From Parcubacteria group bacterium Gr01-1014_8 (lineage in GTDB: Bacteria; Patescibacteriota; Minisyncoccia; Phycocordibacterales; UBA2100): a stretch of 64,000 nt of DNA. Below are positions 3,490 through 55,310 of this stretch, piece after piece. Position 1 is the first letter of the stretch. The number at the start of each line of letters is the position of its first letter. A model generated the notes under the pieces. That model saw only the letters and a list, made by a program, of their open reading frames with translations. It was not told the origin of the DNA and did no database searches. The stretch spans positions 1-64,000 of the forward strand of contig VMGC01000004.1 in assembly GCA_007376385.1 (NCBI GenBank), given 5' to 3'. A program made the position numbers and the translations under genes.

Positions 3490-5049
3490 ATGTCCATCAC
3501 AATTGCTGCATCGTTGTTACAAGCCGCACTCATGTTGCTGACTCTCGTTCAGTCGACGCCTGATCTGCCGCAATCCGCGAGGGATAATGCCATACAAGTT
3601 ACCGAACACGCGATTCGGGAGGCGACCATCGCGCTTACCCGGCTTGGTGCCGCACGGCCAGCCACTGCTGGAGCGGCAACGCTTTCTATAACGAACATGG
3701 CTCTTGCTACACCGCCGGGGATGACCATGACCCTGCAATACAGCAACATGCCGCGGGCAGGAGTCCGCATCATTAATACCGCTGGCGTTGTCGTATGGAC
3801 CCAGGAATTGACCCAGACGGGCGCAGGCACGTTGAATATGCCGCTCCCTATCACGTTGCCGGAGGGGAGCTACACGGCGCAAGCGTTTGGAACAGACAAC
3901 TCTATATACACGACGAGTCAGCCGTATTATTTTGCCGGTAACGTGCCAGCAAGCATAGCGTATAACAATCAATCGCAGTCGTCTGTCGTTGCGGTCTACA
4001 CAAACCTTCCGGCTGGAGTCCACGTCAATCTCCTCTGGAAAAATCCTCAAGGGCAATGGCTCCAAGTAGGAGAGTCCAACATTGCTCCAAACGGAGGCAG
4101 TGGTACGGTCAGCGTGCAAATTACCTTGGTTGACCCTCTTACCGGAAAAGTTCCCCTTGGTTCCTATAAATTTCGAATTCAAAAAACGAGCGACATAACC
4201 TGGTCTCTCGAAAGTGCGCCTTTTGCCTTCATCGGCGGACCGAGGACGGGACTCTGGTGTGATATCACATCGAATAAAGCGAATGTAGTTGCAGGAGAAC
4301 AGTTCATTCTGACATGGACCGGAAGCCAGGAGATCAAGGAACCGGTCATGCATCGGCATATAACCGGAGGCGGCAAGGTACTCGTCTCGCAAAACGGTTC
4401 GATGAGTATGACAGCAGAAAGCGGACCTAAAATAATCTGGTTCACGATTGGTAGTGGCGGACTGACAGGTACGCCCAACGAGATCTGCTCCGTAAAGATG
4501 AATATTGTTTCCTCAACAATGGCTGCTCCGACAGTTTCCATGGAAGCATCTCCTTCAACGCTTGGCGCGGCCCAAACTGCCATGCTGACCTGGAGTTCAA
4601 CCTACGCGAATCGCTGCACTCTTCAATACGATGGTAAAGAAGATATCGTCTCATTGAGCGGCTCAAGGACGGTGACGCCGACACATACAACGGCGTACCG
4701 TTTCGTCTGCACGAATGATCCTGGCTCTGGGAGAGACGGACCTTCTGCAGAAACAACGGCAGTGATAACCATTGCCGCGCCGACGTGTACGCTCACCACA
4801 GACAAAAGTTCGTATAAACTCGGCGAAGCCATCGTGCTTCAGTGGGCAAGCCAAAATGCGACATACGCATCGTTCTGGCAGGACACATCCGGCAGGGATC
4901 ATCTGCTGCTCCCTGGCGACAAATTATCGGCAAGCGGCATGCATACCATCACGGCGAGTGTCCTTGGCAATCCGCCAGTCACTCTCCTTATCTACAATTA
5001 CTTCAACAATAACGCCTGCAGTGTAGTCATCCCGGTCACTCAAAACTAG
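3490..5049 (+). CDS. secreted hypothetical protein (519 aa), beta-rich, Ig-like-repeat appearance
   Basis: N-terminal signal peptide MSITIAASLLQAALMLLTLVQS; Thr/Ser/Gly-rich repeated segments; no catalytic motif recognized. Confidence 0.5.
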   Translation: MSITIAASLLQAALMLLTLVQSTPDLPQSARDNAIQVTEHAIREATIALTRLGAARPATAGAATLSITNMALATPPGMTMTLQYSNMPRAGVRIINTAGVVVWTQELTQTGAGTLNMPLPITLPEGSYTAQAFGTDNSIYTTSQPYYFAGNVPASIAYNNQSQSSVVAVYTNLPAGVHVNLLWKNPQGQWLQVGESNIAPNGGSGTVSVQITLVDPLTGKVPLGSYKFRIQKTSDITWSLESAPFAFIGGPRTGLWCDITSNKANVVAGEQFILTWTGSQEIKEPVMHRHITGGGKVLVSQNGSMSMTAESGPKIIWFTIGSGGLTGTPNEICSVKMNIVSSTMAAPTVSMEASPSTLGAAQTAMLTWSSTYANRCTLQYDGKEDIVSLSGSRTVTPTHTTAYRFVCTNDPGSGRDGPSAETTAVITIAAPTCTLTTDKSSYKLGEAIVLQWASQNATYASFWQDTSGRDHLLLPGDKLSASGMHTITASVLGNPPVTLLIYNYFNNNACSVVIPVTQN

Positions 5050-7341: not shown

Positions 7342-9039
7342 TTATTCGGTTGCAGGTGCAGGTACGTTTGCTGGTGGCGGCGGAGAAGGTTCCGGTTCGG
7401 GTGGTGGTTCTACCGGCGTCTCTGGAGGTGGAGGTGGGACGTCTACAGGGGCGGGAGGTTCTGTTGCAGGAGCCGTCTCTGGCGTGACTTCTGGCACATC
7501 AGACGGCACCGGCGCGGATCCGTCATGTGCAGCATCCGATTGATCTGATTCTTCGGGGGAAGTCGAATCCGTCGCAGGATCGCTATCCTCCGCTGGTGCG
7601 TCTGGTTCGACTGTAGCGTCCAGCTCCGTCTGCTCGGACGTGTCGGCAGAATCCTCGTCTTCGGGGAGCGTGGAATCCTCATCTCTCGGTACATCGGCAG
7701 TTTCTTCTGGAGACGAATTTTCGGCTGGCTCTGCTGCACCGTTCTCTTCCGTGGCGGATCCCGACGCAGTCGCGGCAGGCGCTGCAGACGCGCTGCCTCC
7801 GCCACTGTTCGTTGGCGGTGCCGCATCAGTCGTTTCAGTCGTCGTTGCTTGTTCCGCTTCACTCTCCTCATCCGCGGCGCCCAATACTTCTGGCTGCGGC
7901 TCGCCGAAGGCTTCGGCGGAGGCGGCTTCTGGTTCCGGGTCAGGAATGTTGGGTGTGCCTGGCGTCGGTATCGGGTCCACCCACGTGCCTGTTCCATCTG
8001 GAATACGCGCGTACGACTTGTTTGGCGCGATCGCAGTCCCTGGGCAACTGCCCGCCGATGGAGTTGATGTTGCGTTTGTGCTTCCAGGTGTCAACTCATT
8101 CTCGCAAAAGTCACTGGGGTTGTCGTACGTGTGCGAGTCGACGAGGACGTTCGTATCGGTATAGAGAAAGATGCTATCACCGGTGTTATTGAGAACTGGC
8201 TTGTTGAAGTACACCACAAGCCATCCGTGTGCAGGGATGGTTGTCGTCGCGGGCTGTGTGTTTGTTGATCCTATAACTGCCTGCGTATTTCCAGCCCCGC
8301 CACTTTCATCCGCAAGATACCAATCGACAATATCTATAGCAACGTCGCCCTTGTTGTACAGTTCAACCCATTCGCCGTCCGGCATGTTTGAAGCATCATT
8401 TCCGAAGTCATATCCGTTCGCAGTATCGTCCGGATTCGGCAGGAATTCGTTCAGCACAATATCAAAGACGCTCGCGGTTGCTTGATAGGTGATGACAAGA
8501 TGCACGCGCTCTTCGTCTGTGTAGCCGGTGTTCTCTGGCGCTCCTTCATACCATCCGCGGTAAATGAGGTCAGCGTTGCAGATATCGCTGTTCGCGAAGC
8601 CCGTCGTCGTTGCAAGCGTGAGTCCGACGTTCCATACGCCCGTCGTTGTGGTTGGGGTCGTGTTAAGAGCTATGAGCCCTCCGGAATAAACAAATGGGGA
8701 AGTTGTCGCAACGACATTAAGTGCATTGCATAGCGCTGTTACTCCGCCTGTTTGTTCTGCAGTCACTCGATACTTTGTGGTGAAGCTCCCGGCTTCCGGC
8801 GTCATGACAGGAATGATGAGGGGAGTCGTTGTCGCTGTTATCGTTCGCGCGTATGTGTCATCTGCGACAAGAAAATCAAGAAGTCCCGCGCCAAAGAAGT
8901 TTCCGATCGAAATTTCTGTATCTCGCAAATATGAAAGCGTCTGTCCAATACCACCGTATGACATTCCGAAAGAAGATGCAAAGAGCATACATGAAAGCGC
9001 AAGAACTGTTGCCTTATGCGCAAAGGATGGCTTCCACAT
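7342..9039 (-). CDS. secreted lamin-tail-domain (LTD) protein with long acidic Pro/Ser/Thr/Glu-rich C-terminal tail
   Basis: Signal peptide MWKPSFAHKATVLALSCMLFASS at the internal Met (start 9039). LTD signature region DGEWVELYNKGDVAIDIVDWYLAD...GWLVVYF. The last ~200 aa are low-complexity (PEPEP, PPPPPETPVEPPPEPEPSPPPP). Confidence 0.7.
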   Translation of the reverse strand: MWKPSFAHKATVLALSCMLFASSFGMSYGGIGQTLSYLRDTEISIGNFFGAGLLDFLVADDTYARTITATTTPLIIPVMTPEAGSFTTKYRVTAEQTGGVTALCNALNVVATTSPFVYSGGLIALNTTPTTTTGVWNVGLTLATTTGFANSDICNADLIYRGWYEGAPENTGYTDEERVHLVITYQATASVFDIVLNEFLPNPDDTANGYDFGNDASNMPDGEWVELYNKGDVAIDIVDWYLADESGGAGNTQAVIGSTNTQPATTTIPAHGWLVVYFNKPVLNNTGDSIFLYTDTNVLVDSHTYDNPSDFCENELTPGSTNATSTPSAGSCPGTAIAPNKSYARIPDGTGTWVDPIPTPGTPNIPDPEPEAASAEAFGEPQPEVLGAADEESEAEQATTTETTDAAPPTNSGGGSASAAPAATASGSATEENGAAEPAENSSPEETADVPRDEDSTLPEDEDSADTSEQTELDATVEPDAPAEDSDPATDSTSPEESDQSDAAHDGSAPVPSDVPEVTPETAPATEPPAPVDVPPPPPETPVEPPPEPEPSPPPPANVPAPATE

Positions 9040-9155
9040 TTTTACTTTTTGTACCGGTTTGCCGAGAGCAGTAGGAAGCGCCAAGACGTGTCTCGACAAT
9101 GGAAACTTCTCGACGGTGCCGTCTACTGTCGGTATCCGTATATAGGTCATGTCGC

Positions 9156-9722
9156 TCATGGTTGTCGTAGGTCGAGCGTCGGAGTCGAACGGTTTGGCGG
9201 CGTGCCGGGATCCTTTCGTCTGCGAAGTGCAGTGACCTCGCGGCCGATGCGTATCACTTCGTCAACGATAATGATGGCAGCAGGAATTGCTATCATCAGC
9301 GTGAATCCGAGCGGTTTCTTTGCGAAATCAAGCACATATCCCGCATAGGGGATAGAGAACAGAACGCGTCCCTCGACATCCTGCGCAGCAATACGCACGC
9401 CATCCGCTTCCTCGTTCGCGTCGCCTTTGGTTTTATAAAACACTTGACTGCCCTCTGTTTGTATCTCGACAATTCGGTGCGTTGTAGGTATCTGCGCGCC
9501 CGTGCCTTCGCCGAACGTAATAACATCGCCAACGGCGTATGTTGATTGCGGTTTGAGGACGACGACGGAACCGGTCAATATCGCAGGCTCCATCGAACCG
9601 CTTTTAACTATCTTTATCTGCACGTTCCCCGGGATTGGGAGAAGTGATGCAAGGAAAAGGCCAGCAACCCCCAAGAGAAGGAGGACGAATACTGCATAGA
9701 AAAGTTTGCTAACGATCGTCAT
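9156..9722 (-). CDS. sipW: signal peptidase I, archaeal/eukaryal type (S26B, SipW-like)
   Basis: N-terminal TM anchor then SGSMEP catalytic-Ser box and GDVITF; 188 aa; SipW architecture. Directly downstream of four SipW-cognate-signal proteins. Confidence 0.75.
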   Translation of the reverse strand: MTIVSKLFYAVFVLLLLGVAGLFLASLLPIPGNVQIKIVKSGSMEPAILTGSVVVLKPQSTYAVGDVITFGEGTGAQIPTTHRIVEIQTEGSQVFYKTKGDANEEADGVRIAAQDVEGRVLFSIPYAGYVLDFAKKPLGFTLMIAIPAAIIIVDEVIRIGREVTALRRRKDPGTPPNRSTPTLDLRQP

Positions 9723-9725
9723 AGT

Positions 9726-10760
9726 TTATCGGAGTCGATTGAAAAGGTCTCTCAATAGATCACGAATGTCGTCACTGTCGCCGTTGATATTCGTTGTATT
9801 TGTCGTGTTGGTGGTCGTTGCGCTCGAAGACGCGTTGCCAGTCGTTACTGTGCCTCCCTGACCGGGCAGGCCGCCTCCTGCCGTATTGCCTCCTGTGTTT
9901 GAGCTCGATGTAGTTATCGAATTGACCGTGCCATTGTTTACGATGGTGATGTTAATGGGACCATTACAGCTTGGGCACGGCGGCTCAACTGGAGGATAGC
10001 CGCCGCAGATGAACTTTGGCTTAAGTTGCGCCATCTCTGCGCGGATAGAAACATCCACGCTAAAGGAATCTGTCTGCGCTTCGTTGCCGAGTGCGTTAGC
10101 GTCGCAGTTGAAGGAGCCGTTTTGTTGAACTGTCAGGTCTCCTGCGCACCAGCACATGCCGACATATCGCTTGGTATTGAGACGGCACATACTGCCGCGC
10201 GAATCCGCTATGGCGTACGTCGTTGATGCAAACACATACGAAGCCGCCTGCGTCGATGTGCCGAATATCGGCTTCTCGTTTGGCGGTTCATATTTACCAT
10301 CGCCATCATCCATCCAGCCAAAAAATTCTGTTCCATCCGCTAATTCTGCTCCTGCCGCGCCATCTTCATGTCCTTCCGGTTCGTTTACACCGTTCTCGTT
10401 TTCCTGAAGATTTTTGAAATCGAGACACATCCAGGCATTTGCATTCTTTACATGCATTGAGATCACGTTACAGCCAAAGTCGCCAGGCTTAATGTCGTCA
10501 AAATTGAAGAATTTATCTGCACCGGGGACGAGATTTTTCAGCGCCCACGTTGCAGAGGGGACAAGTACGCCGTTATAGAACGCTTGGCTGTCTATCTTTA
10601 AGTCTATTCCGTGCGTCGCGAAAGTTACGCCCGGCTCATTTCCGCGTACGACGTAAGCGACACCAACTACGGCAAACACCCCCGCCACGATGAGGGTGCG
10701 TGCCATTATCTTAGTTAGTGCCGCTGTTTGTGTCATACCATGCATTTCGTTCAACCACAC
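9726..10760 (-). CDS. TasA/camelysin-like SipW-dependent secreted protein, paralog 4 (divergent N-terminus)
   Basis: Shares the family motifs GIDLKID near the N-terminus and the C-terminal CDANALGNEAQTDSF...RAEMAQ...FICG with the three upstream paralogs. The start is uncertain; alternative Met codons are at 10736 and 10706. Confidence 0.6.
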   Translation of the reverse strand: MWLNEMHGMTQTAALTKIMARTLIVAGVFAVVGVAYVVRGNEPGVTFATHGIDLKIDSQAFYNGVLVPSATWALKNLVPGADKFFNFDDIKPGDFGCNVISMHVKNANAWMCLDFKNLQENENGVNEPEGHEDGAAGAELADGTEFFGWMDDGDGKYEPPNEKPIFGTSTQAASYVFASTTYAIADSRGSMCRLNTKRYVGMCWCAGDLTVQQNGSFNCDANALGNEAQTDSFSVDVSIRAEMAQLKPKFICGGYPPVEPPCPSCNGPINITIVNNGTVNSITTSSSNTGGNTAGGGLPGQGGTVTTGNASSSATTTNTTNTTNINGDSDDIRDLLRDLFNRLR

Positions 10761-10775
10761 TCCAGAGCGAATTTA

Positions 10776-10830
10776 TTCGCCCAGCTCCAGTTTCGTGCGC
10801 ACGTAACTGTCGAAACTGGAGCTGGGCAGG
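10776..10830. promoter_or_regulatory. intercistronic stem-loop (16-bp perfect stem, 15-nt loop) between paralog 3 and paralog 4
   Basis: cccagctccagtttcg ... cgaaactggagctggg are exact reverse complements; no obvious U-tract on the minus strand. Candidate transcript-processing or attenuation element. Confidence 0.5.
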
Positions 10831-10836
10831 CCGAAG

Positions 10837-12057
10837 TTAATCTTGGATGCCGTCACCAACCTCGTTGTTCAGAATGTTGCAGGTGAGATTGTCGCTCGGG
10901 TTCAAGGTGAATGGGGATGACGTACCGACGTTGACGCTGTTCGTGCAAGCGCCGCTGAATGTCACGGTGAAAGTCTTTCCGCCGACATTACCTGTTACCT
11001 GCTCATACGCGGTATACGAACCGCTCGGCAGGCCTGGCACCGGCACTTCGTCGGTCACTACCTGGTCGCCACCCGGGCCGACTATGTGCAGCGTGAAGTC
11101 GGCAACTTCGATACCTACTGTTGAAACGAGGAGTGCCTTGTTGACGGTAAGAGTACCGGTTGTCACCTCCGGTGGATTGCAGAGGAAGCCTTCATTGTGT
11201 CGCGCTTGTTCTGCTCTGAATGCAAGCGTGAGTTCAGCCATGTCAGTTTGCGTCTCGTTGCCAAGCGCGGTTCCGTCACAAAGTACGCTGTTAGGTCGTA
11301 CTTGCGGGCCTGTATCAGCGTCATCAGGCAAGCCAGGGGTCGTCAAGGTTCCAAAGCACCACGCTTTCGCGATATAGACGGTCTCATTTGCGGGAAGCGG
11401 CGAGTCTCCTCCCCACGCGTTTCCATTTGAGTCGGCAAGGGTGATGGAGAAGGCGCCGGTCGTCGTAGCAAGGTCAGTGAGTGTCTTTACGCCTCCCGAG
11501 AGGCCTTGTTCGCCAGTTTCGTACACGTTGTCACCGTCGTCAGCCCACCAGAAGAATTGGAGTGCATCTGCAAGCTCACCGTCCCACGCATCAAGCGGGT
11601 TTTCCTGCGCATCCACCTGGCCTTCAGGCTCAGTGGTCGAGACATCGTCATCCGATGTAAGCGTCAAGTCCATACATGCCCACGCATCGTTCTGAACGTG
11701 AATAGAGATGGTGTCCTCGCCCTCATCATCCGGCTTCAAGTCAGTGAAGTTGAAAAAGAGAAGACCGTCGTCGAGGTCCGAAAGAGGGAAGCTCGTGTCG
11801 CACGGCGAGCCTGGGAGTGGGAACGGAAACTGCCCCTGCCAATAGAATCCCGGCGTCGTCGTCGCTTGCTCGCCAAGGAATGTGCAGCGATTCCCATTGT
11901 AATAACTGTCATTATCAATCTTCAAATCAATCGCTCCCGCAGCAAACGTGTTGCCAGTGGACGTCTCTGTGTCGGAAAAGAACGCGCCGGTCATTCCCGC
12001 TCCTATCGCAGCCGCCGCTCCCGCGACAACGATGAGCCCAAATATGATTCGTGGCAT
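10837..12057 (-). CDS. TasA/camelysin-like SipW-dependent secreted protein, paralog 3 (406 aa)
   Basis: N-terminus MPRIIFGLIVVAGAAAAIGAGMTGAFFSDTETSTGNTFAAGAIDLKID matches the SipW-cognate class signal region (AFFSDTETSxGN). Conserved C-terminal CDGTALGNETQTD...FRAEQARHN...FLC. Confidence 0.7.
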   Translation of the reverse strand: MPRIIFGLIVVAGAAAAIGAGMTGAFFSDTETSTGNTFAAGAIDLKIDNDSYYNGNRCTFLGEQATTTPGFYWQGQFPFPLPGSPCDTSFPLSDLDDGLLFFNFTDLKPDDEGEDTISIHVQNDAWACMDLTLTSDDDVSTTEPEGQVDAQENPLDAWDGELADALQFFWWADDGDNVYETGEQGLSGGVKTLTDLATTTGAFSITLADSNGNAWGGDSPLPANETVYIAKAWCFGTLTTPGLPDDADTGPQVRPNSVLCDGTALGNETQTDMAELTLAFRAEQARHNEGFLCNPPEVTTGTLTVNKALLVSTVGIEVADFTLHIVGPGGDQVVTDEVPVPGLPSGSYTAYEQVTGNVGGKTFTVTFSGACTNSVNVGTSSPFTLNPSDNLTCNILNNEVGDGIQD

Positions 12058-12220
12058 ATTGTTTATTAATTAATCGCCAGTTTCCCACTGGTTAATAATG
12101 TTGCTAATAACGTAAAGAACTTTGCTGTGCCGTGCCCCGTGAGATGGCTTCGCCTATCTCATGGGGTTTCCCGTACAGCCTCCCGAGCACGACTTTCATG
12201 CTCGGAGTGGCTAGAAAGGA

Positions 12221-13513
12221 CTAAGTTGGATCTGGCGGCGGCGCATCTCCCGGATCGCACAGAAAATTCGGATTATGCCGCACTTGTTCCGCGCGGAACA
12301 CGATGTCGGCGGTCAACGAATCCGTCTGCGCTTCGTTACCCATCGTGCTGCCATCGCACGTGATAACGCCCGTCAGACCGTCAACAATTTGCACTCCTGC
12401 GCACCACGCAGAGCCGATGTACTCTGTCGTACTCGCAACGAGTGCGCCATTTCCTGTCGTAGAGTCGTGAAGCGGGAGCGTAATGCCGTTCCCGAAGAGT
12501 CCTGATGAGAGAGACGTCTCCGTCGGCGGTTCATACACGCCGTCTCCATCGTCATTCCACAGGAAGAGATTGAGATAGTTGCCAAGCTCTCCGAGCGGGC
12601 TGTTGTTCAAATCCACGAGACTCGCGGCGTTGCATTCCGCGTCCGGTACGAGCGCGTCTGATTCCGGTTCGGTGCAGGTGTTGTCGTCGTTCTCCACATT
12701 CGTGATGTCCATGCACGCCCAGCCGTCGTTGGTGCCGACATGCAAACTGAATACATCGCGCCCGTCGTCGCCCGGCTTTACGTCGGTGAAATTCCAGAAC
12801 GGCTCGCCCGTGAGATCAATGGGGTCAACAAAGATTCCATCGCCATCAACGACGAGTTTGAAGAGAAGCCCCGCGGGATTAAACGTTGGGTCGCCTCCGC
12901 CTCCACCAGGGTTCGTTACAACTGCGGTAAGTGTATTTGGGCCCTGCACGAAATCCGCCGCTGGTACGACGTACACGTCTTCTGCAGCAGAGGTGAAATT
13001 ACTTGCCGCAAATTCGCTACCGATCGCATTGCCGTTCAGAGAAACAGAATAGAAGTTATCCGCGGCAATGTAGAGCGTCGCGCCGACGATCGGCCCATTC
13101 ACGTTGAACGTCCGAGTGAACGTATTTGTCTGCGTAACGCTCGCGTCCGATGGGCCATCAGCAGCCCAGATCCAGAACGAGCCATCGTTCGCGCCATCAT
13201 TTGGTGGTCCCGCAACATGCCCGCCATCCAAATCCGCAGTCCACGACGGATGAATGAACGTAACCGCAACGGCATTTCCCGCGCCGTCGTCTCCTGTGAA
13301 TGTCGTTAGTGTGTCGCTCACGATGGTAAAGTCCTCGCCGTTTGGTTCGCCGTTGTACGTTGAAAGGGAATGGTCGATCTTGAGGTCAATCGAGCCGGCG
13401 GTGAAGATATTTCCCGCCGAAGTTTCGGTGTCAGAAAAGAAAGCACCCGTTGCTCCCGCTACTGCTCCGCCGATGAAGATGATCATACCGAGTCCCAGTA
13501 ATATTCGTCGCAT
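12221..13513 (-). CDS. TasA/camelysin-like SipW-dependent secreted protein, paralog 2 (430 aa)
   Basis: MRRILLGLGMIIFIGGAVAGATGAFFSDTETSAGNIFTAGSIDLKID; C-terminal CDGSTMGNEAQTD...FRAEQVRHN...FLC. Confidence 0.7.
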   Translation of the reverse strand: MRRILLGLGMIIFIGGAVAGATGAFFSDTETSAGNIFTAGSIDLKIDHSLSTYNGEPNGEDFTIVSDTLTTFTGDDGAGNAVAVTFIHPSWTADLDGGHVAGPPNDGANDGSFWIWAADGPSDASVTQTNTFTRTFNVNGPIVGATLYIAADNFYSVSLNGNAIGSEFAASNFTSAAEDVYVVPAADFVQGPNTLTAVVTNPGGGGGDPTFNPAGLLFKLVVDGDGIFVDPIDLTGEPFWNFTDVKPGDDGRDVFSLHVGTNDGWACMDITNVENDDNTCTEPESDALVPDAECNAASLVDLNNSPLGELGNYLNLFLWNDDGDGVYEPPTETSLSSGLFGNGITLPLHDSTTGNGALVASTTEYIGSAWCAGVQIVDGLTGVITCDGSTMGNEAQTDSLTADIVFRAEQVRHNPNFLCDPGDAPPPDPT

Positions 13514-13696
13514 AGTATCTATGCGCCGGTTTCCCTATATTAGTTAGCTGTTCTAAAAACGTTGCTGTTCACTGAACAGCCCCTCCAGTCGCAGGTTCGC
13601 CAAGGCGACTCCTTGAGATCCCCAAGGTGTCGCCTTGTGCATCGGCGAGCTGCGGCTGGATTCGGCTATCCACGAACCATCTAATTTCGTAGAGAA

Positions 13697-14596
13697 CTAG
13701 GAAGCTGGTACAGGTGTTACCCAAGATGGAACGTAGTCTGTCTCACACTGGAAGTCAGCGTTATTTCGAGATTGCTCCGCATAGAACTCGAGATCGCCAA
13801 TGACTCTGTCAGTTTGAGCTGCGTTATCAACTCCTGTTCCGTCGCAGTTCCAACCGGTTCCGAGGGTAGTCGGATTACCCGTGTTGACGCCATCTTGGAC
13901 GAGGGCATCGGGCGTCATTGCACCGAAGCACCAAGCCTTACCGATGTAGTTCGTTGATCCGCCAGGAACCCCGGCGCTACCGAAGGGACCTCCGGAAGCG
14001 TCAGAAAGAGCGATTTGACCTTGTGAGTCCAATCCGCTGATTGGACCGCTCAAAAAGACGGTTTCTGGTGATCCGCCTGTGCCTGCGACTGGCTCGAAGA
14101 CGTTGTCTCCGTCGTCCACCCAGAACGCGAAGTTGACTTGCTCGTCCAACTCACCGAGACCTGGACCCGGCTCTGCACAATTTGCGTCATCATCACCTTC
14201 CGGTTCCGTACAGGTATTATCTTCGTCTGTTGTTACTTGCGCCGCTGCGCACAGCCAAGCGTTGTTGCTACCGACGTGAATGGAGATTGTGTCCTCACCA
14301 AGGTCTCCCGGTTTCAGATCAATGAAATCGAAGAACTTCTCAATAGTTAGGTCAGTTAAATCCCACGAGGTGGCAGCCCACGCGACCATATTGTCGGGGC
14401 CTGATCCTTGTGTAGAAGTAGCGGTGATGTAGCTGTCATTATCGATCTGTAAATCAATATCTCCCGCCGCAAACGTGTTGCCAGTAGATGTTTCTGTGTC
14501 GTTGAAAAAAGCGCCCGTGGCTCCCGCCGCGACCGCCCCCACAAACACGATCATCCCCAAACTTATGAGAATTCTTTGTACTGATAGTAATTGCAT
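13697..14596 (-). CDS. TasA/camelysin-like SipW-dependent secreted protein, paralog 1 (299 aa; first gene of the cluster)
   Basis: MQLLSVQRILISLGMIVFVGAVAAGATGAFFNDTETSTGNTFAAGDIDLQID; C-terminal CDGTGVDNAAQTD...FYAEQSRNN...FQC. Confidence 0.7.
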   Translation of the reverse strand: MQLLSVQRILISLGMIVFVGAVAAGATGAFFNDTETSTGNTFAAGDIDLQIDNDSYITATSTQGSGPDNMVAWAATSWDLTDLTIEKFFDFIDLKPGDLGEDTISIHVGSNNAWLCAAAQVTTDEDNTCTEPEGDDDANCAEPGPGLGELDEQVNFAFWVDDGDNVFEPVAGTGGSPETVFLSGPISGLDSQGQIALSDASGGPFGSAGVPGGSTNYIGKAWCFGAMTPDALVQDGVNTGNPTTLGTGWNCDGTGVDNAAQTDRVIGDLEFYAEQSRNNADFQCETDYVPSWVTPVPAS

Positions 14597-14624
14597 ATTA
14601 TTTTTTTATTATTGATTTTTTATA

Positions 14625-14680
14625 TTTGGAGTTACGAACTCCAAACGTGCCAGATATTTGGACTTACGAACTCCAAACGT
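14625..14680. promoter_or_regulatory. two tandem palindromic boxes (24 nt each, 32-nt period) upstream of the TasA-like cluster
   Basis: tttggaGttacgaactccaaacgt (14625-14648) and tttggaCttacgaactccaaacgt (14657-14680); each has tttggag/ctccaaa inverted arms. They lie 30-85 nt upstream of the minus-strand start at 14596, beside an AT-rich stretch. Confidence 0.45.
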
Positions 14681-14825
14681 CTGTTTGGTAATTTCTTGCG
14701 TCGTTCGGAAGATCGACCACTCCGATCTCGCGATTGTTTGTACTGCTTCCTTCAGTCCACAAGCACCATGTTACCCAAGGACCTTCTCGTTTCCCGAAAG
14801 AAGAACGAAGCAGTAATTTGAATCG

Positions 14826-15377: not shown

Positions 15378-15959
15378 TTACGAGAGAGGCAATTTGAAAT
15401 GCACGCGGAATTTTCTGTCGTTCTCAATACTTTGAGCGATAAGATACACTACGCTTGGACCCAGCTTCAGCTCCGTGCGAATAAAGGATATGAATTCTTC
15501 GCATGGGTGGGGGAATATCCATACGCTTTCCTGCAATTTCACAAAACCGATTTTCTGCAGCATTTTTCGCAGTTGTACCCTTTGGCGGCGTCTCTTTTCC
15601 CAAATATCGAATATGACCACGCGCCACAAACCATCCCATTTTCGCGGGATTTGAGGTTGGATCGCTTCGGCCTGCTGGAGGCGTCCCATCTCTCGTTTTC
15701 CGCGCTCGGTAAGGGCGAATTTCCCATCGACTTTCCGCACAAAACCCTTGTCTTCTAGGCGCCCTAAGGCCTGTCGCATCCTGTGAGAAGCATTGCGCCG
15801 TCGGTTAAAATCAGGGTCGATGTGCTTCAACAATCTGGCTGCATTCGGTGCCATCAGGACGAACGTGAGTGCTGCCGCCCCAAATAGGGTCATCAGCATT
15901 GCATCCTGTATCTTTAGGCGCCTGTTATGTGCTTTCGCTTTTATTTCATGCTGTCCCAT
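15378..15959 (-). CDS. PaaX-like winged-helix transcriptional regulator
   Basis: N-terminal wHTH-like region plus a C-terminal WDGLWRVVIFDIWEKRRRQRVQLRKMLQKIGFVKLQESVWIFP segment resembling the PaaX C-terminal domain (W-G-W...R..LR..L...GF..L...VW..P). Confidence 0.5.
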   Translation of the reverse strand: MGQHEIKAKAHNRRLKIQDAMLMTLFGAAALTFVLMAPNAARLLKHIDPDFNRRRNASHRMRQALGRLEDKGFVRKVDGKFALTERGKREMGRLQQAEAIQPQIPRKWDGLWRVVIFDIWEKRRRQRVQLRKMLQKIGFVKLQESVWIFPHPCEEFISFIRTELKLGPSVVYLIAQSIENDRKFRVHFKLPLS

Positions 15960-32822: not shown

Positions 32823-33170
32823 TTAACCAAATACTAACACCTTGTCCGAACTCTCGACCATATTGAGTAAGTCGGACATGGTGGAAATAGGACACATGGC
32901 GGTCTCTTTTTTGCCGCGAATTTCCAAGCAAGTACCGCATGCAAAGATTGTTCCTTTCAGTTCTTTATATTCTGCAATTCTCTTTGAAATATCAAAATGT
33001 TCGCCATCAGGAATAGAATCCAATTCCGAACCCTCATTCATCAAGAAAATCTCAACGTGGTGATTAGCTTTGAGTGCGGCGATACCGAGGCGGAACGTGT
33101 TCCATACGTGTTCGGGTTTATTGGATTGTAGGATGATGCCGAGCTTCATAGAGAGTATCTTCGTATCCAT
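32823..33170 (-). CDS. DsrE/DsrF-like family protein
   Basis: 115 aa with KLGIILQSNKPEHVWNTFRLGIAALKANHHVEIFLMNEG and a conserved Cys (FACGTC), consistent with the DsrE/DsrF/YchN-like fold. Confidence 0.5.
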   Translation of the reverse strand: MDTKILSMKLGIILQSNKPEHVWNTFRLGIAALKANHHVEIFLMNEGSELDSIPDGEHFDISKRIAEYKELKGTIFACGTCLEIRGKKETAMCPISTMSDLLNMVESSDKVLVFG

Positions 33171-33186
33171 TGATATAATACTTCAT

Positions 33187-34740
33187 ATGCGCTATTTCCT
33201 CTACGCCCGCAAAAGTACGGATGTCGAAGACAAACAGGTGATGTCCATCGAAGGACAGCTCGTTGAACTGCGGGCATTGGCTAAACGTGATGGATTAGAA
33301 ATTGCAGAAGAATTCATTGAAAAGCGAAGCGCGAAGATTCCAGGCCGCCCTGTATTTGAGGACATGTTAAAGCGGATCGAGAAAGACGAAGCGCACGGAA
33401 TTATCTGCTGGAAAATTGATCGTCTTTCACGCAATCCGGTTGATAGCGGGAGAATTAGTTGGCTACTTCAACAGAACATAATCCAGAAGATCGTAACGCA
33501 TGACAAGATATATCTTCCTCACGACAACGTACTCCTCATGTCTGTGGAATTCGGCATGGCGAATCAGTACATCCGAGACTTGAGTGTCAACGTGAAGCGC
33601 GGCCTCCGGCAAAAGGCACGACAAGGCGTATATCCAAGTACCGCGCCCTTGGGCTACCGCAACGACCCGTACACCAAGACCATCGTCGTGGATCGGCGCA
33701 AAGCGCCGCTCGTGCGTAAGGCATTTGAACTCTACGCAAAGAACGGCTCGCGGCTCGAAGACATTGCGCAGTTTCTTTTCGAGCACGGCATCAAGACGGG
33801 AGCGACGCGCGGATGGAGCAAGGGCGGCGGCAGGCCGCTCAAAAAAGACCAGATAACATTCCTGCTCTCTAATCCGTTTTACTTCGGCCACTTCGCCTAC
33901 AGCGGCGAGATGTACGAGGGCACGCATACGCCCATCGTGAGCAAGGAGCTTTTTGACGCGGTGCAAAAAGTCCTCGCGCTTCGCAGTCGTGCGCACCACA
34001 AAGTGGCGAACGAGCCGCAAGCGTATTGCGGCCTTTTGCATTGTGGCGAGTGCGGCTTTTCCATCACCGCCGAGGAGAAATCGAAGCGACAGAAGAACGG
34101 CAACGTACATCGCTACATTTACTATCGCTGTACGAAAAAGAAAGCCGCCGTTCATTGCTCACAGCCGTATGTGCGGGAAGAAGCGCTCGACTCGCAACTC
34201 TCCGGCTTGCTCGCAAAGTTTGTCATGCCCGCGCATTGGGCGAAGGAATTAGACGCAATGGCCGAGCGAGATGCGGCAAGCGCCTCTCAAACCACGGCGG
34301 CGTCCGTCCAAGCGATGCGGGCAAAGATTGCCGAGTTAGACGGCAAAATCGCCCGCATCACCGACCTCTTTGTCGAACAGGATATCGAGCGCGGCGACTA
34401 TCTCGAAAGGAAGCGCGCACTTATGTCCGAAAAGAAGTCGGTGCAGGAGCGAATCCTCCTGCTTGAACGGGACGCCGCCGTGTGGCTCGAACCGATGCAG
34501 AAGTGGATACAAGAGGCGCAAATGCTTGAAGAAATTGCGAAATCCAAAGACTACCCCTCCAAAAAATCCTCCCTCCAAAAAATCTTCGGCTCGAACCTCA
34601 CTCTCCACGCGCGCGAAGCGCGCGGCGTGCCGCAAAATCAGTGGTTTTCTTTGCTCACTGCCAAAGAAAACCACTCCGAAAATAACCTCGTTCCGATACT
34701 TGTGACCTCACGGGGAATCGAACCCCGGTTCCATCCTTGA
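33187..34740 (+). CDS. large serine recombinase (resolvase/invertase-type catalytic domain plus recombinase and zinc-ribbon domains)
   Basis: MRYFLYARKSTDVEDKQVMSIEGQ (catalytic Ser region), GIICWKIDRLSRN, recombinase-domain motifs, the CGLLHCGECG zinc ribbon and a C-terminal coiled coil. The 3' end is encoded by IR-R and runs into the antisense of tRNA-Glu. Confidence 0.8.
   Translation: MRYFLYARKSTDVEDKQVMSIEGQLVELRALAKRDGLEIAEEFIEKRSAKIPGRPVFEDMLKRIEKDEAHGIICWKIDRLSRNPVDSGRISWLLQQNIIQKIVTHDKIYLPHDNVLLMSVEFGMANQYIRDLSVNVKRGLRQKARQGVYPSTAPLGYRNDPYTKTIVVDRRKAPLVRKAFELYAKNGSRLEDIAQFLFEHGIKTGATRGWSKGGGRPLKKDQITFLLSNPFYFGHFAYSGEMYEGTHTPIVSKELFDAVQKVLALRSRAHHKVANEPQAYCGLLHCGECGFSITAEEKSKRQKNGNVHRYIYYRCTKKKAAVHCSQPYVREEALDSQLSGLLAKFVMPAHWAKELDAMAERDAASASQTTAASVQAMRAKIAELDGKIARITDLFVEQDIERGDYLERKRALMSEKKSVQERILLLERDAAVWLEPMQKWIQEAQMLEEIAKSKDYPSKKSSLQKIFGSNLTLHAREARGVPQNQWFSLLTAKENHSENNLVPILVTSRGIEPRFHP
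34571..34685. repeat. inverted repeat, right copy (IR-R), inside the recombinase 3' coding region
   Basis: See the mobile-element call. Local hairpin agtggttttctttg...caaagaaaaccact. Confidence 0.55.
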
Positions 34741-34774
34741 GAAGGATGTGTCCTAGCCGCTAGACGATGAGGCC
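34703..34774 (-). tRNA. tRNA-Glu (anticodon CUC), 72 nt, no encoded CCA
   Basis: The reverse complement folds as acceptor GGCCTCA/TGAGGTC, D-arm GTCT-AGCGGCTA-GGAC, anticodon stem CATCC/GGATG with loop TTCTCAA (anticodon CTC), 4-nt variable loop, T-arm CGGGG-TTCGATT-CCCCG, discriminator A. Confidence 0.8.
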
Positions 34775-52161: not shown

Positions 52162-55100
52162 CTATCGCACGGGGGAGGATCGCTGCACAACAGTGCTGTC
52201 TTGCCGCGCGATTTTCCACGAACCCGGCCATCGGTAGGTCAAAATCGGTATCATCACTAAGGTCAATATCATAGAGAATGCAAGCCCGAACATGATAGCG
52301 AACGCCAGCGGTCCCCATAGCGCTGAAGCGCCAGCAAGCGGCGCCATGCCGATAACGGTTGTCAGCGTCGTAAGGAATATCGGACGAAGGCGTGAGACGG
52401 CGGCCTCGACGATGATATCTCTATGGCTAAGGTCGTGCCGCGTCTGCAAAAGCCGATGTATTGAGTCAGTAAGAATAATTGCGTGATTAATGATAACCCC
52501 GGCGAGCGCAATGATGCCGATGACGGACGAGAACGACAGCGTTTGCGCCGTTAAGAACAATCCTCCGAAGACGCCGATCAAGGATAGGATGACCATCAAG
52601 ATGAGGTAGAGTGCGTGGCGCAGAGAATTGAATTGAAGGACCATGATGGCTATCATCAAAAGGAGGCCCGCAATGAACGCGATACCCATTTCCGCGAATG
52701 ACTTATTTACATCTTCAGTCTCACCGCCCGCTTTCCACGTGACGCCCTCTGGCAATTCGAGTTCATCTATACGCGCTTCGAATTCGTTTGTAACTTCAAC
52801 TGCTGTTTTACCGCCAGAAACCTGGCTAGAGACAGTCTCAATGCGCTTGCGATCGTCATGGCTGATGGAAGATTTTCCGCGATGAATTGATGTATCGAGA
52901 ACTGAACCGAGGAGTACCGGTCCACGGGGCGTTGGAATAGATATCGCGCGCAAAGCGTCTGGGCTAATGATAGTCGTTTCAGATGGGTCATCATAGAGGG
53001 GATTGAGGTCGAGTTTAACAACGACGTCTATATCGTCTTTAGCATTTCGTATCGTCGTAGCCGTTTGACCTTGTACAGCCGTGCGCAGTGTTTGCGCTAT
53101 CATCACCGGCGATAATCCTAAGGAAGCTGCTTTTGCCCTGTCGATAGAAAGTGAGAATTCGAGCCCGTTATCTTTCACGCTCGACTGAATGTCTGAGACT
53201 CCTTCAATGGAGGAAAGAATGTTTTCTGCCTTTAACGCGGCACTTTCCAGTTGGTCGAGGTCATCGCCGGAAAATGTGATGAGTACCGGCGAGCCCGACG
53301 GCGGGCCGTTATTCGGCTCCTGTATGCGAACATCCGTTCCCGGGATCGTGCCAACGCTTTTCCGAATATCCTCAACTACCTCGGACGAGGTCTTAGTCCT
53401 GTTTTTTTTGAGAAGTATAGTGATGTTCGCAAGATGGCCACCAGACGTTGGAGCGTCTCCAGTAAGAGCGCTCGAACCTCCCGTTGTCGTGGTGAATGCT
53501 TCAATATCAGGATTTCCATACAGCGATTCCTCAACGATGCGTACCGCAAGGTCGGTCTCTTCGAGAGCAGTGCCGCGCGGTTTCTCGATCTCAGCAAAAA
53601 TAAAATCTATGTCTTCCTGCGGGAAGAACGTTGTCCTCAAGAGGCCTGTAATAGGTAAGAGCATGGAGAGGATGAATGCGCCTGCTATTGACCACAGGAA
53701 AATATTCTGCGCCCGTCTGCTATCTAAGAGCCCGGATAGCTTCATCCGGTACCACTCTTGGAATCGATGCGTATACTCCTCTTGTTTTTGTTCGAGCCTG
53801 TTAGACTCTTTTGTCGTTAAAGCGATAGCTATGAGAGGAACAATGCCGAGAGCAACAAAAATTGACGCTACAAGAACGAAGATAAGCGTGAAAGGAATCG
53901 ATGCTATGAATTCGCCGACAATGCCGGATATGAAAAAAAGTGGAGCAAATACGGCGACGCTCGCCATCGTGCCGCTCATAAGCGGCCACGCATATTCCCG
54001 AAGCGACACGGCAGCTGCTTCATCCTTCGTAGGATAGCGGCGCATGCGGGTATGTATGGCCTCGGTGACAACGATGCCGGAATCAACCAGGATACCAATT
54101 GCAAGAATGAGCGCAAAAAGCGATACGAAGTTTATCGTATTGCCGGACGCTTGCAGGCCTATGAATGCTATAAGGAACGAAAGCGGAATAGAAGCTGCTG
54201 CAACGAGCGATTCACGCCAACCTATCGTTATAAAGAGAGTAAGCATCACCAATATCATGGTCTCGAATCCGACGCTGGTGAGCTCCGTTAAGTCTTTATT
54301 GACCTCTTCCCCTAAGTCGAGCGCAACGACAACCGTACTCCCCGCAAGCATGCCCGACTGCAATTCATCAAGCCGTTCTTTTATAGCGTCGGCAGTCGCG
54401 ACGATATTGCCGCCGGAACTTTTGAAGACGGAGAGCGTAAGGGAAGATTGCGACGGCTCACCCGCCTTCGACGCTCGGGAGATGCTCGTCGGTTTTTGTA
54501 ATCCATCCACAATGTCTGCGATATCGCGGATGTACACGATCGAGCCGCTTTGAGTCAATATCGCAACATCACGCACTTGGTCCGCTTTTGTAAGGTCTCC
54601 CTCAAAGTTCAGCGCGTATTCGACAGAATTGACGGTTATTGAACCTACCGGCAGCGAAGCATTTGATGCTTGTATGGCTCCCGTTACATCTCCTAGTCGG
54701 AGTCCATACTGCTCGAGTTTGTCTTTTTGAACTATGACGTGTATCTGGCGTTTCCGCACGCCTGACACTTCTACTCGGGAAACACCGTCCACATTTTGAA
54801 GCTCTTCTTTTATATCGTCGCCTAGTTTTGTGAGGATAGAAGGCGGATATTCACCGGTCACGGAAATAATAAGTACTGGTTGTTCGGAGAAATTTATCTC
54901 GCTCACGACCGGGTCATTTGCTTCTTCCGGCAGATTTGGTTTTACCTGGTCTATCGCGTCCTTCAAGTCCTGGATAGATTTGTCGAGGTCGGCACTCGCG
55001 TCGAATTGCACAGTAACGATCGAAATGCTCTCGCGAGAACTCGACGTGAGTGTGTCCAGGTTTTCAAGATTCGCGACAGCTGTTTCTATCTCATTCGTTA

Positions 55101-55290: not shown

Positions 55291-55310
55291 ACGCTACGTC
55301 GAGTTCAAAT

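What the first reader, a model, noticed from the sequence alone, without database searches (positions are those of the whole stretch)
7342..14700. Multi-paralog SipW/TasA-like secreted-protein locus with an LTD surface protein: candidate cell-surface fibre system
Six co-directional minus-strand genes form an apparent operon. Four are paralogs (299, 430, 406 and 344 aa) with the rare SipW-cognate signal region (GAFFSDTETSTGNTFAAG...IDLKID) and a shared C-terminal CDG..GNE.QTD...RAEQ.R.N..F.C module. They are followed by an archaeal-type SipW signal peptidase and an LTD-domain protein with a ~200-aa acidic Pro-rich tail. In Bacillus, SipW processes TasA (amyloid-like biofilm fibres) and CalY. 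Several divergent subunit paralogs behind one dedicated peptidase, plus an LTD protein, suggest a major and minor subunit fibre or sheath that has not been characterised in this configuration. The region also looks higher in GC than its flanks, which is a qualitative impression only.
Basis: partly seen in the sequence, partly recalled or inferred. Interest (0 to 1): 0.75.

Follow-up and report, generated by a model that had tools for sequence, protein, structure and literature searches.

The report
TasA-like surface fibre operon in CPR bacteria
This ultra-small groundwater bacterium (a member of the Candidate Phyla Radiation, CPR) has a six-gene operon that most likely builds a cell-surface protein fibre related to the Bacillus biofilm fibre TasA; the same module recurs across CPR bacteria and I found no published description of it.

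Summary
Window 7342-14596 (minus strand) encodes four paralogs (299, 430, 406 and 344 aa), an archaeal-type signal peptidase (TIGR02228, 111.7 bits) and an LTD protein with a 205-aa acidic, Pro-rich tail. The window comes from Parcubacteria bacterium Gr01-1014_8.

- Only three paralogs carry the full SipW-cognate motif. The fourth (D) keeps a transmembrane (TM) helix but lacks the segment that aligns with TasA's cleavage site and donor strand.
- The LTD protein also carries that motif, followed by an Ig-like domain.

In 67 of 67 related CPR loci with enough sequence, one to four paralogs precede SipW. In 30 loci the SipW ORF is at least 300 aa. In 20 of those, a hydrophobic segment and a donor-type motif follow the peptidase domain.

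Best reading: a donor-strand-exchange heteropolymer. The LTD protein would be a TapA-like initiator, A, B and C the polymerising subunits, and D a membrane-anchored terminator. Polymerisation and these roles are inferred, not shown. I rate it a new variant of a known kind, of moderate interest.

The parts
13697..14596 (-). Paralog A (299 aa). It is the minimal-core subunit and the first gene of the operon. It has a signal peptide, a predicted SipW cleavage site at A29|F30, a donor-strand-type motif (FFNDTETSTGNTFAAG) and a jelly-roll core.
14438..14512 (-). Residues 29-53 of A: the predicted cleavage site, the donor-strand motif and the start of the first strand (AFFNDTETSTGNTFAAGDIDLQIDN).
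   Evidence: These positions are nearly invariant in the family, yet residues 26-44 have pLDDT below 50 in the monomer model. Profile-profile match to the TasA family: 96.5% probability, E 9.2e-10.
12221..13513 (-). Paralog B (430 aa). It has the full motif and the same core, with an inserted beta-rich module.
   Evidence: TIGR04088 21.1 bits. 47% identical to A.
12755..13189 (-). The insert in B (residues 109-253). It resembles part of the non-catalytic N-terminal region of the Streptomyces avermitilis rhamnosidase SaRha78A and is a candidate sugar-binding module.
   Evidence: phmmer against PDB 3w5m_A residues 135-270, E 1.5e-8. NF041573 E 1.8e-8 and PF08531 E 0.021. SaRha78A contains a Ca-dependent rhamnose-binding CBM67 (PMC4690510). 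That the matched residues are the CBM67 itself is from memory and not verified.
10837..12057 (-). Paralog C (406 aa). It has the full motif and core, plus a C-terminal module of about 110 aa (residues about 296-406, nt 10840-11172) that belongs to no recognised family.
   Evidence: TIGR04088 19.9 bits. Orthologous 'C-type' genes follow A-type genes in many CPR loci. No Pfam hit for the extra module.
9726..10760 (-). Paralog D (344 aa). It has a TM helix (residues 20-38) and the family core, but no cleavage or donor-strand segment. Its C-terminal region is low-complexity and ends in a basic stretch. Candidate membrane-anchored, acceptor-only terminator.
   Evidence: No TIGR04088 hit. TM segment from hydropathy. 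All 22 D-type ORFs (21 related ones plus the window's) lack 'AFFSDTETSxGN', and wherever a SipW gene is present they lie directly upstream of it. [quoted passage not shown]
9156..9722 (-). SipW-type (archaeal/ER-type, S26B) signal peptidase I (188 aa). It has two TM segments (10-28 and 139-157) and the motifs SGSMEP (41-46), THR (81-83) and GDAN (100-103).
   Evidence: TIGR02228 111.7 bits against a cut-off of 51.85. NF046067 (Bacillus SipW equivalog) 117.4 bits, below its cut-off of 190. Motifs and TM segments.
7342..9159 (-). LTD protein (605 aa). In order: a conserved cytoplasmic N-extension, a signal peptide, a donor-type motif (residues about 73-95), an Ig-like domain (about 95-225), the LTD (233 to about 395) and an acidic Pro-rich tail (401-605). 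Candidate TapA-like initiator or tip.

Best explanation
The operon encodes a TasA-superfamily surface fibre of a CPR (Patescibacteria) bacterium.

Shown here: A, B and C are secreted paralogs whose N-termini match the TasA signal peptide and donor strand. A dedicated archaeal-type signal peptidase sits in the operon. The predicted core fold of A is closest to the TasA fibre subunit. The module is conserved across CPR lineages.

Inferred mechanism:
1. SipW cuts after T-x-A (A29|F30 in A), which exposes the N-terminal strand 'FFxDTETSxGNTF'.
2. That strand inserts into the beta-sandwich of the next subunit (donor-strand exchange), giving a linear heteropolymer of A, B and C. B and C add extra modules, and B's may bind sugar.
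3. The LTD protein has the donor-type strand but an Ig-like domain instead of the jelly roll. It would act like TapA by supplying the first strand, and would end up at one end of the fibre with its LTD and acidic tail.
4. D has the acceptor core and an uncleaved TM helix but no donor strand. It could only occupy the other end, terminating the fibre and tying it to the membrane.

The likely role is attachment to a host, a surface or other cells. That is a guess from analogy.
For: - HMM hits: TIGR04088 above its cut-off for A, B and C; TIGR02228 for the peptidase; LTD for the last gene.
- hhalign of the family against a TasA-family profile: 96.5% probability, E 9.2e-10. It aligns 'GATGA|FFNDTETSTGNTFAAGDIDL' with TasA 'GGTWA|AFNDIK-SKDATFASGTLDL'. 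TasA residues 28-38 are the donor strand, with F29, I32 and F39 making the contacts (PMC9674648). The family's F31 is nearly invariant and F42 invariant.
- These conserved residues are disordered in the monomer model (pLDDT below 50 for residues 26-44). That fits an intermolecular role.
- Donor and acceptor parts are split between partners. Donor-only: the LTD protein, with the motif and an Ig-like fold, and 20 of the 30 SipW ORFs of at least 300 aa, where a hydrophobic segment and a donor-type motif follow the peptidase domain. Acceptor-only: 22 D-type ORFs, with a TM helix, the core and no donor segment.
- Synteny: 67 of 67 CPR loci with downstream sequence have 1-4 paralogs followed by SipW. 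59 also have a downstream or fused partner. Flanking genes are not conserved.
- Precedents: tapA-sipW-tasA, where TapA's N-terminus resembles the TasA donor strand, and the haloarchaeal Tafi loci with pilin paralogs, a tip protein, a TM-plus-jelly-roll anchor and a peptidase.
Against: - No fibre has been seen, and no multimer prediction could be run.
- Significant sequence similarity to TasA stops after about 47 N-terminal columns. The core-only profile comparison is not significant (E 0.012, probability 3.6%).
- PF12389 is below its gathering score for the window proteins, and matches only profile positions 4-54 even in orthologs that pass.
- Whether D's TM helix stays uncleaved is judged from sequence only.
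- D-type genes were found in only 21 of the 79 related loci, none of them among those titled Microgenomates-type, so the anchor role cannot be general.
- Which paralog is the major subunit cannot be decided.
Confidence: 0.6

Rival explanations
1. The paralogs are SipW-processed but non-polymerising surface or secreted proteins (adhesins or lectins). The shared N-terminal cassette would be only an export and processing tag.
Against: About 12 residues after the cleavage site are nearly invariant yet unstructured in the monomer model, and they match the TasA donor strand. A simple export tag would not explain partners that keep only this strand (the LTD protein and the SipW fusions), or a partner that keeps only the core (D). 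The top structural match is a fibre subunit.
Confidence: 0.15
2. The same subunits build a two-dimensional lattice, sheath or S-layer-like coat rather than discrete fibres.
For: There are several co-expressed paralogs, and conservation is unusually high for extracellular proteins (55-70% identity among the listed hits). One TasA-superfamily member, AbpX, forms para-crystalline networks triggered by calcium (bioRxiv 10.64898/2026.01.04.697558). The family has an invariant acidic W-x-DDGD-x3-E motif that could bind a cation; that is speculation.
Against: Donor-strand exchange by itself gives linear polymers. The initiator and terminator logic fits a polar filament better than a sheet. No evidence for a lattice was obtained here.
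Confidence: 0.12
3. The proteins are camelysin-type (Peptidase_M73) secreted metalloproteases.
For: The only Pfam family hit by the paralogs is PF12389, 'Camelysin metallo-endopeptidase'.
Against: The match covers only the signal and donor-strand region (profile positions 4-54) and is below the gathering score here. None of the proteins has an HExxH motif.
Confidence: 0.03

Closest known systems
Bacillus subtilis tapA-sipW-tasA (TasA biofilm fibre)
   Same: Both have a dedicated archaeal/ER-type signal peptidase in the operon. The N-terminal signal and donor-strand cassette is homologous (hhalign 96.5%). The jelly-roll core has TasA as its best structural match. Both have an accessory protein that carries a donor-like N-terminus on a different beta-sandwich: TapA there, the LTD protein here.
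   Different: The cores show no significant sequence similarity. The CPR core carries four invariant cysteines (positions 116, 223, 251 and 284 in A) and a DDGD motif. There are three or four paralogous subunits instead of one. The accessory protein carries an LTD and a 205-aa acidic tail. An acceptor-only paralog with a TM helix (D) is present. The gene order differs (subunits, then peptidase, then initiator). In many relatives the peptidase is fused to the initiator.
Haloarchaeal Tat-fimbriae (Tafi): TafA/TafE pilins, TafC tip, TafF anchor, TafD/G peptidase
   Same: [quoted passage not shown] Assembly is by strand donation (PMC12337348).
   Different: Tafi are archaeal and exported by the Tat pathway. 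No sequence comparison with Taf proteins was made here. The CPR proteins have Sec-type signals with the TasA-type cassette.
Archaeal bundling pili and related matrix proteins (AbpA/AbpB, AbpX with an adjacent TIGR02228 peptidase)
   Same: They belong to the TasA superfamily and polymerise by donor-strand complementation. AbpX has a neighbouring TIGR02228 signal peptidase. AbpB is a TapA-like partner.
   Different: They form different sequence clades. The 2026 RefSeq-based cluster map, as described in the passages read, lists Bacillota, Actinomycetota, Chloroflexota and archaeal groups, and the text contains neither 'Patescibacteria' nor 'Candidate Phyla'. The AbpX-associated peptidase has ten TM helices, whereas this one has two.
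Bacillus cereus sipW-tasA-calY locus (TasA and CalY paralogs with the CapP chaperone)
   Same: It has more than one TasA-type paralog beside SipW, plus an accessory assembly factor (titles and abstracts).
   Different: It is restricted to the B. cereus group. It has no LTD protein and no TM-anchored paralog. I did not compare sequences.

Membership tests
TasA/CalY family (Pfam PF12389, Peptidase_M73) | Whole-protein score at or above the Pfam gathering score of 22.5 bits | tested here: not met
   A 20.9, B 19.5, C 20.1 bits, D no hit. Ten orthologs tested do pass (24.9-33.9 bits), but only over profile positions 4-54 of 196.
TasA superfamily (donor-strand matrix and pilus proteins) | N-terminal SipW-type signal followed by a donor-strand sequence homologous to that of TasA | tested here: met
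   TIGR04088 is above its cut-off for A, B and C. hhalign against the TasA family gives 96.5%, E 9.2e-10, over 47 columns. D does not meet this.
TasA superfamily (donor-strand matrix and pilus proteins) | Jelly-roll core resembling TasA | tested here: met
TasA superfamily (donor-strand matrix and pilus proteins) | Sequence homology of the core domain | tested here: inconclusive
   Core-only hhalign gives E 0.012 and probability 3.6%, but the alignment is collinear and pairs the KPGD and Q(T/G)D..F.(A/F)E.Q motifs. The profile found nothing in PDB sequences.
TasA superfamily (donor-strand matrix and pilus proteins) | Polymerisation by donor-strand exchange | not testable with these tools
   No multimer prediction or experiment was available. 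The inference rests on the donor-only and acceptor-only partners.
Archaeal/ER-type signal peptidase I (TIGR02228; MEROPS S26B) | Model score above its cut-off, and the Ser/His/Asp motifs present | tested here: met
   111.7 bits against 51.85. SGSMEP at 41-46, THR at 81-83 and GDAN at 100-103.
Bacillus SipW equivalog (NF046067) | Score at or above 190 bits | tested here: not met
   117.4 bits. It is a SipW-like enzyme, not an ortholog under NCBI's criterion.
Signal peptidase dedicated to the neighbouring subunits | Conserved operon linkage with its presumed substrates | tested here: met
   67 of 67 loci. 30 SipW ORFs are at least 300 aa. In 20 of them a hydrophobic segment and a donor-type motif follow the peptidase domain in the same ORF. 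Cleavage itself was not tested.
Lamin tail domain (PF00932) | Score at or above 34.3 bits | tested here: met
   52.6 bits, residues 233-345. Conserved in the family alignment.
TapA-like initiator | An N-terminus resembling the subunit donor strand, on a non-TasA beta-sandwich | tested here: met
Sortase-dependent or type IV pili | LPXTG sorting signal, or class III prepilin signal | tested here: not met
   Neither motif occurs in any of the five structural proteins. The loose LPXTG-like pattern matched only 'IPYAG' inside the SipW peptidase.

The most novel reading that the evidence does not exclude
This is a CPR-wide, cell-anchored heteropolymeric pilus, distinct from type IV pili, that these episymbionts use to reach or hold their hosts. 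It would be polar, with an LTD-bearing initiator at the tip, lectin-carrying subunits along the shaft, and a TM-anchored acceptor-only terminator at the base. In many lineages it would be primed by a signal peptidase fused to its own first substrate, a self-processing assembly starter not described for any TasA-type system.
Probability: 0.3. Interest if true: 0.8.

Novelty: new variant of a known kind. Interest (0 to 1): 0.55.

Why it matters
How ultra-small CPR bacteria attach to hosts and surfaces is poorly understood. To my knowledge, which I did not check here, the only appendages studied so far are type IV pili. This locus is a second, well-conserved candidate surface filament. The 50%-identity library holds 862 clusters at E 1e-30 or better, and at least 341 matching stretches turned up in the collection of species-representative genomes, a lower bound set by two exact peptide patterns.

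It would extend the TasA superfamily of donor-strand fibres into the CPR. It also offers a naturally dissected system, with donor-only, donor-plus-acceptor and acceptor-only proteins in one operon, for studying how such fibres start, stop and stay attached.

The peptidase-substrate fusions link a SipW-type enzyme to its substrate by gene fusion, and would be a new arrangement for this kind of peptidase.

Tried and rejected
- PF12389 as proof of core homology: rejected. All matches cover only the first ~54 profile positions (4-54).
- Family profile against PDB sequences: no hit even at E up to 10.
- Core-only hhalign against the TasA family: not significant.
- LTD protein N-domain as a TasA-like jelly roll: rejected. 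It is Ig-like.
- A terminator after gene A (13580-13564) as a way to set subunit ratios: the hairpin exists, but scan counts are at chance level (9 found, 8.0 expected), and only 3 of 58 related loci have one.
- Conserved flanking genes or a dedicated regulator: none. The PaaX-like gene recurs in only 2 other loci.
- Higher GC as a sign of a foreign island: the rise is 3.8 points. It is largest in the Pro/Ala-rich tail (0.619), and the module is found across CPR lineages, so the coding composition probably explains it.
- Camelysin-type protease: no HExxH.
- Sortase or type IV pilus: no LPXTG or prepilin motif.
- The JGI label 'ribosomally synthesized peptide with SipW-like signal peptide': not credible for folded proteins of 300-430 aa.
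- Pfam assignment for the C-terminal modules of C and D: none.
- Domain boundaries of CBM67 in SaRha78A: the paper is not held.
- Deciding the major subunit from ortholog scores: no consistent winner.
Full report
**Source and anatomy.**
Paralog A is 100% identical to a hypothetical protein of 'Parcubacteria group bacterium Gr01-1014_8', so the window comes from a CPR/Patescibacteria genome. The rest of the window looks like ordinary chromosome: mraW, a penicillin-binding protein, a Mur ligase, ATP synthase, GMP synthase and YchF.

Six minus-strand ORFs occupy 7342-14596:
- A, 13697-14596, 299 aa
- B, 12221-13513, 430 aa
- C, 10837-12057, 406 aa
- D, 9726-10760, 344 aa
- SipW, 9156-9722, 188 aa
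- LTD protein, 7342-9159, 605 aa

The gaps between successive genes are 183, 163, 76 and 3 nt, followed by a 4-nt overlap. That fits one operon whose last three genes may be translationally coupled.

**Checking the observation.**
- B, C and D are 47, 46 and 35% identical to A and share the C-terminal 'CDG..GNE.QTD..RAEQ..F.C' module.
- TIGR04088 (SipW-cognate signal) is above its cut-off for A, B and C. TIGR02228 scores 111.7 bits against 51.85 for the peptidase. PF00932 scores 52.6 against 34.3 for the LTD.
- The peptidase has two hydrophobic segments and the SGSMEP, THR and GDAN motifs.
- The LTD protein's tail is 205 aa, rich in Pro, Ala and Glu, with net charge -51.
- Region GC is 0.541 against 0.503 elsewhere. 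None of 227 sampled windows of the same length is higher. The rise is largest in the tail (0.619), so amino-acid composition probably explains it.

Two points differ from the finding:
- D has no TIGR04088 hit. After a TM helix (residues 20-38) it reads 'RGNEPGVTFATHGIDLKID', so the 'GAFFSDTETSTGN' segment is missing.
- The LTD protein has its own version of the motif, 'TLS|YLRDTEISIGNFFGAGLLDF'. In the window, this motif occurs only in A, B, C and the LTD protein.

**Relation to TasA.**
Its residues 28-261 are identical to PDB chain 8aur_A; residues 1-27, the signal peptide, were not verified that way.

- hhalign of the CPR family against TasA, and then against an alignment of 28 TasA/CalY proteins, gives 96.5% probability and E 9.2e-10, but only over 47 N-terminal columns.
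- The alignment puts TasA's known cleavage point (A27|A28) opposite A29|F30 of paralog A. It puts TasA's donor strand (residues 28-38; contacts F29, I32 and F39; PMC9674648) opposite 'FFNDTETSTGNTF'. F31 is nearly invariant and F42 invariant in the family.
- With Phe at P1' and P2', a dedicated SipW-type enzyme would make sense. The abstract of PMC10269814 states that E. coli LepB cleaves poorly when an aromatic residue is at P2', as in TasA.
- PF12389 matches, even those above the gathering score in orthologs, cover only profile positions 4-54. Earlier counts of 'TasA homologs in Patescibacteria' based on that Pfam model (PMC9245690) may therefore rest on this N-terminal cassette alone, if those hits behave like the 43 proteins tested here.

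For the core, the evidence is as follows:
- The profile finds nothing in PDB sequences.
- A core-only profile comparison is not significant (E 0.012). It is, however, collinear and pairs 'DLKPGD' with TasA 'NLKPGD', and 'NAAQTD..LEFYAEQ' with 'NKYQGN..FSFEATQ'.
- The AlphaFold model of A (pLDDT 80.5, pTM 0.75) has a signal helix, a disordered stretch at residues 26-44 and a beta-rich core.
- Its best match in Foldseek is the TasA fibre 8aur_A (E 9.3e-4, probability 0.98).
- No HExxH, LPXTG or prepilin motif is present.

I file the proteins under the TasA superfamily. The cassette is clearly homologous and the core is probably so, but they do not qualify as members of Pfam PF12389.

**The LTD protein.**
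Its relatives, among the names shown, are CPR proteins with the same layout: a short cytoplasmic extension, a hydrophobic segment, 'AYFxDxExSxxNxFxAGxLDF', a domain of about 130 aa with two conserved cysteines, the LTD, and an acidic Pro-rich tail.

This parallels TapA, which has a donor-like N-terminus on a macroglobulin-like sandwich.

**Conservation.**
- Two peptide patterns alone picked up 341 confirmed stretches in the collection of species-representative genomes. Of the 79 loci kept, the informative record titles all name CPR groups: Kaiser-, Zambryski-, Taylor-, Yonath-, Vogel-, Lloyd-, Nomura-, Portnoy-, Woese-, Levy- and Daviesbacteria, and Minisyncoccia. Some third-party assemblies carry placeholder names such as 'uncultured Gammaproteobacteria'.
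- The exhaustive profile search found 862 clusters (50% identity) at E 1e-30 or better, and 3368 at E 1e-3 or better. In nearly all of the 150 listed hits the core lies at the N-terminus, and total length ranges from about 220 to 990 aa.
- In my ORF and HMM survey, all 67 loci that extend far enough have 1-4 paralogs (mostly 2-3) followed on the same strand by SipW. The other 12 loci stop at or within about 600 nt of a contig end.
- 29 loci have a separate downstream protein of the LTD-protein type.
- 30 loci have a SipW ORF of at least 300 aa. In 20 of these, the peptidase domain is followed by a hydrophobic segment and a donor-type motif ('SYFxDxExSxGNxFxAGEW'), then usually a Pro-rich linker, and sometimes an LTD. 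Database proteins such as P0136 and P0159 are the same kind of fusion.
- The topology is consistent. SipW's C-terminus and the LTD protein's N-extension are both cytoplasmic, so an in-frame fusion simply adds a third TM helix that serves as the signal peptide.
- Flanking genes are not conserved, so the module consists of the paralogs, the peptidase and the initiator.

**Paralog types.**
Scoring each related ORF against A, B, C and D shows a recurring order of A-type, C-type, D-type and then SipW in many Parcubacteria-type loci. B-type is rare.

All 22 D-type ORFs (21 related ones plus the window's) lack the cleavage and donor segment but keep a hydrophobic segment and '(I/V)TFATxGIDLKIDS'. Wherever a SipW gene is present they lie directly upstream of it. 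None was found in loci titled Woese-, Levy-, Daviesbacteria or Microgenomates.

**Mechanism.**
- Shown: homology of the cassette, the peptidase family, the fold similarity, the operon conservation, and the existence of donor-only and acceptor-only partners.
- Inferred: SipW cleavage frees the donor strand, and A, B and C polymerise by strand exchange. The LTD protein, or the fused initiator, supplies the first strand as proposed for TapA. D can accept a strand but not pass one on, so it would end the chain and hold it at the membrane. This matches what is proposed for TafF in haloarchaeal Tafi (PMC12337348).
- In this model the LTD and the acidic tail sit at the distal end.
- B's insert (residues 109-253) resembles residues 135-270 of the rhamnosidase SaRha78A (E 1.5e-8). 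That enzyme contains a Ca-dependent rhamnose-binding CBM67. Whether the matched residues are that module is from memory only. If they are, the shaft could bind host wall sugars.
- The biological role (attachment or matrix) is a guess.

**Rivals.**
- Non-polymerising adhesins.
- A lattice or sheath.
- A camelysin-type protease.

These are weighed in the rival explanations. None of them explains the split of donor and acceptor parts among operon partners as well as the fibre model does.

**Novelty.**
- Full-text searches pairing SipW or TasA with CPR terms, a search for TIGR04088, and term look-ups in two recent CPR papers found no description of this system. In searches that also included camelysin or 'lamin tail domain', none of the listed papers contained those terms.
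- One paper notes in passing that PF12389 occurs in Patescibacteria.
- A 2026 RefSeq-based survey of the TasA superfamily, in the passages read, lists Bacillota, Actinomycetota, Chloroflexota and archaeal clades. Its text contains neither 'Patescibacteria' nor 'Candidate Phyla'.
- The library is not complete, so an earlier description cannot be excluded.

I rate it a new variant of a known kind. The assembly principle and peptidase type are the same. The differences are a distinct cysteine-bearing core clade, several subunit paralogs, an LTD-bearing initiator, an acceptor-only TM paralog, and peptidase-initiator fusions.

Noticed in passing
Related loci, e.g. L016 4621-6165, L014 13468-15198, L027 5043-6836, L011 12864-14312; protein P0136: In 30 of 67 loci the SipW ORF is at least 300 aa. 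In 20 of these a hydrophobic segment and a donor-type motif follow the peptidase domain, so the enzyme appears to be fused to a substrate that it would have to cut off itself.
   Followed up: partly
window 9726-10010 (C-terminus of D); also D-type ORFs in L003, L016, L018, L027, L045, L050: Several D-type proteins share a C-terminal 'NNNGxVxNxTTxxSNTGGNxAGGGGTVxTGNASS' stretch followed by a short basic or hydrophobic end. There is no Pfam match and the role is unknown.
   Followed up: partly
window 9040-9159 (first 40 residues of the LTD protein): The cytoplasmic N-extension 'IRIPTVDGTVEKFPLSRHVL' before the signal peptide is conserved in close homologs (P0121-P0128). That is unusual for a secreted protein and is unexplained.
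   Followed up: no
window 33070-34774: A large serine recombinase (Resolvase, Recombinase and Zn-ribbon domains) whose 3' end overlaps a tRNA-Glu(CTC) gene on the opposite strand. This may mark the edge of an integrated element.
   Followed up: no
window 15378-15959 (-): A PaaX-like winged-helix regulator (PaaX_M, 72 bits) lies about 780 nt upstream of gene A on the same strand. A relative sits near the cluster in only two other loci (L020, L022).
   Followed up: partly
window 3490-5049 (+): A 519-aa protein that looks secreted, with repeated beta-rich modules and only weak DUF4493 and MG2 hits. It may be another surface protein.
   Followed up: no
window 52162-56921 (-): An AcrB-type RND transporter (608 bits) next to a HlyD-like membrane-fusion protein. 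This is a tripartite-pump-like pair in a bacterium usually regarded as having a single membrane.
   Followed up: no
L009 3399-4199 (-) and L011 5388-6068 (-): Two Woesebacteria loci carry a second SipW-like gene on the opposite strand upstream of the cluster.
   Followed up: no
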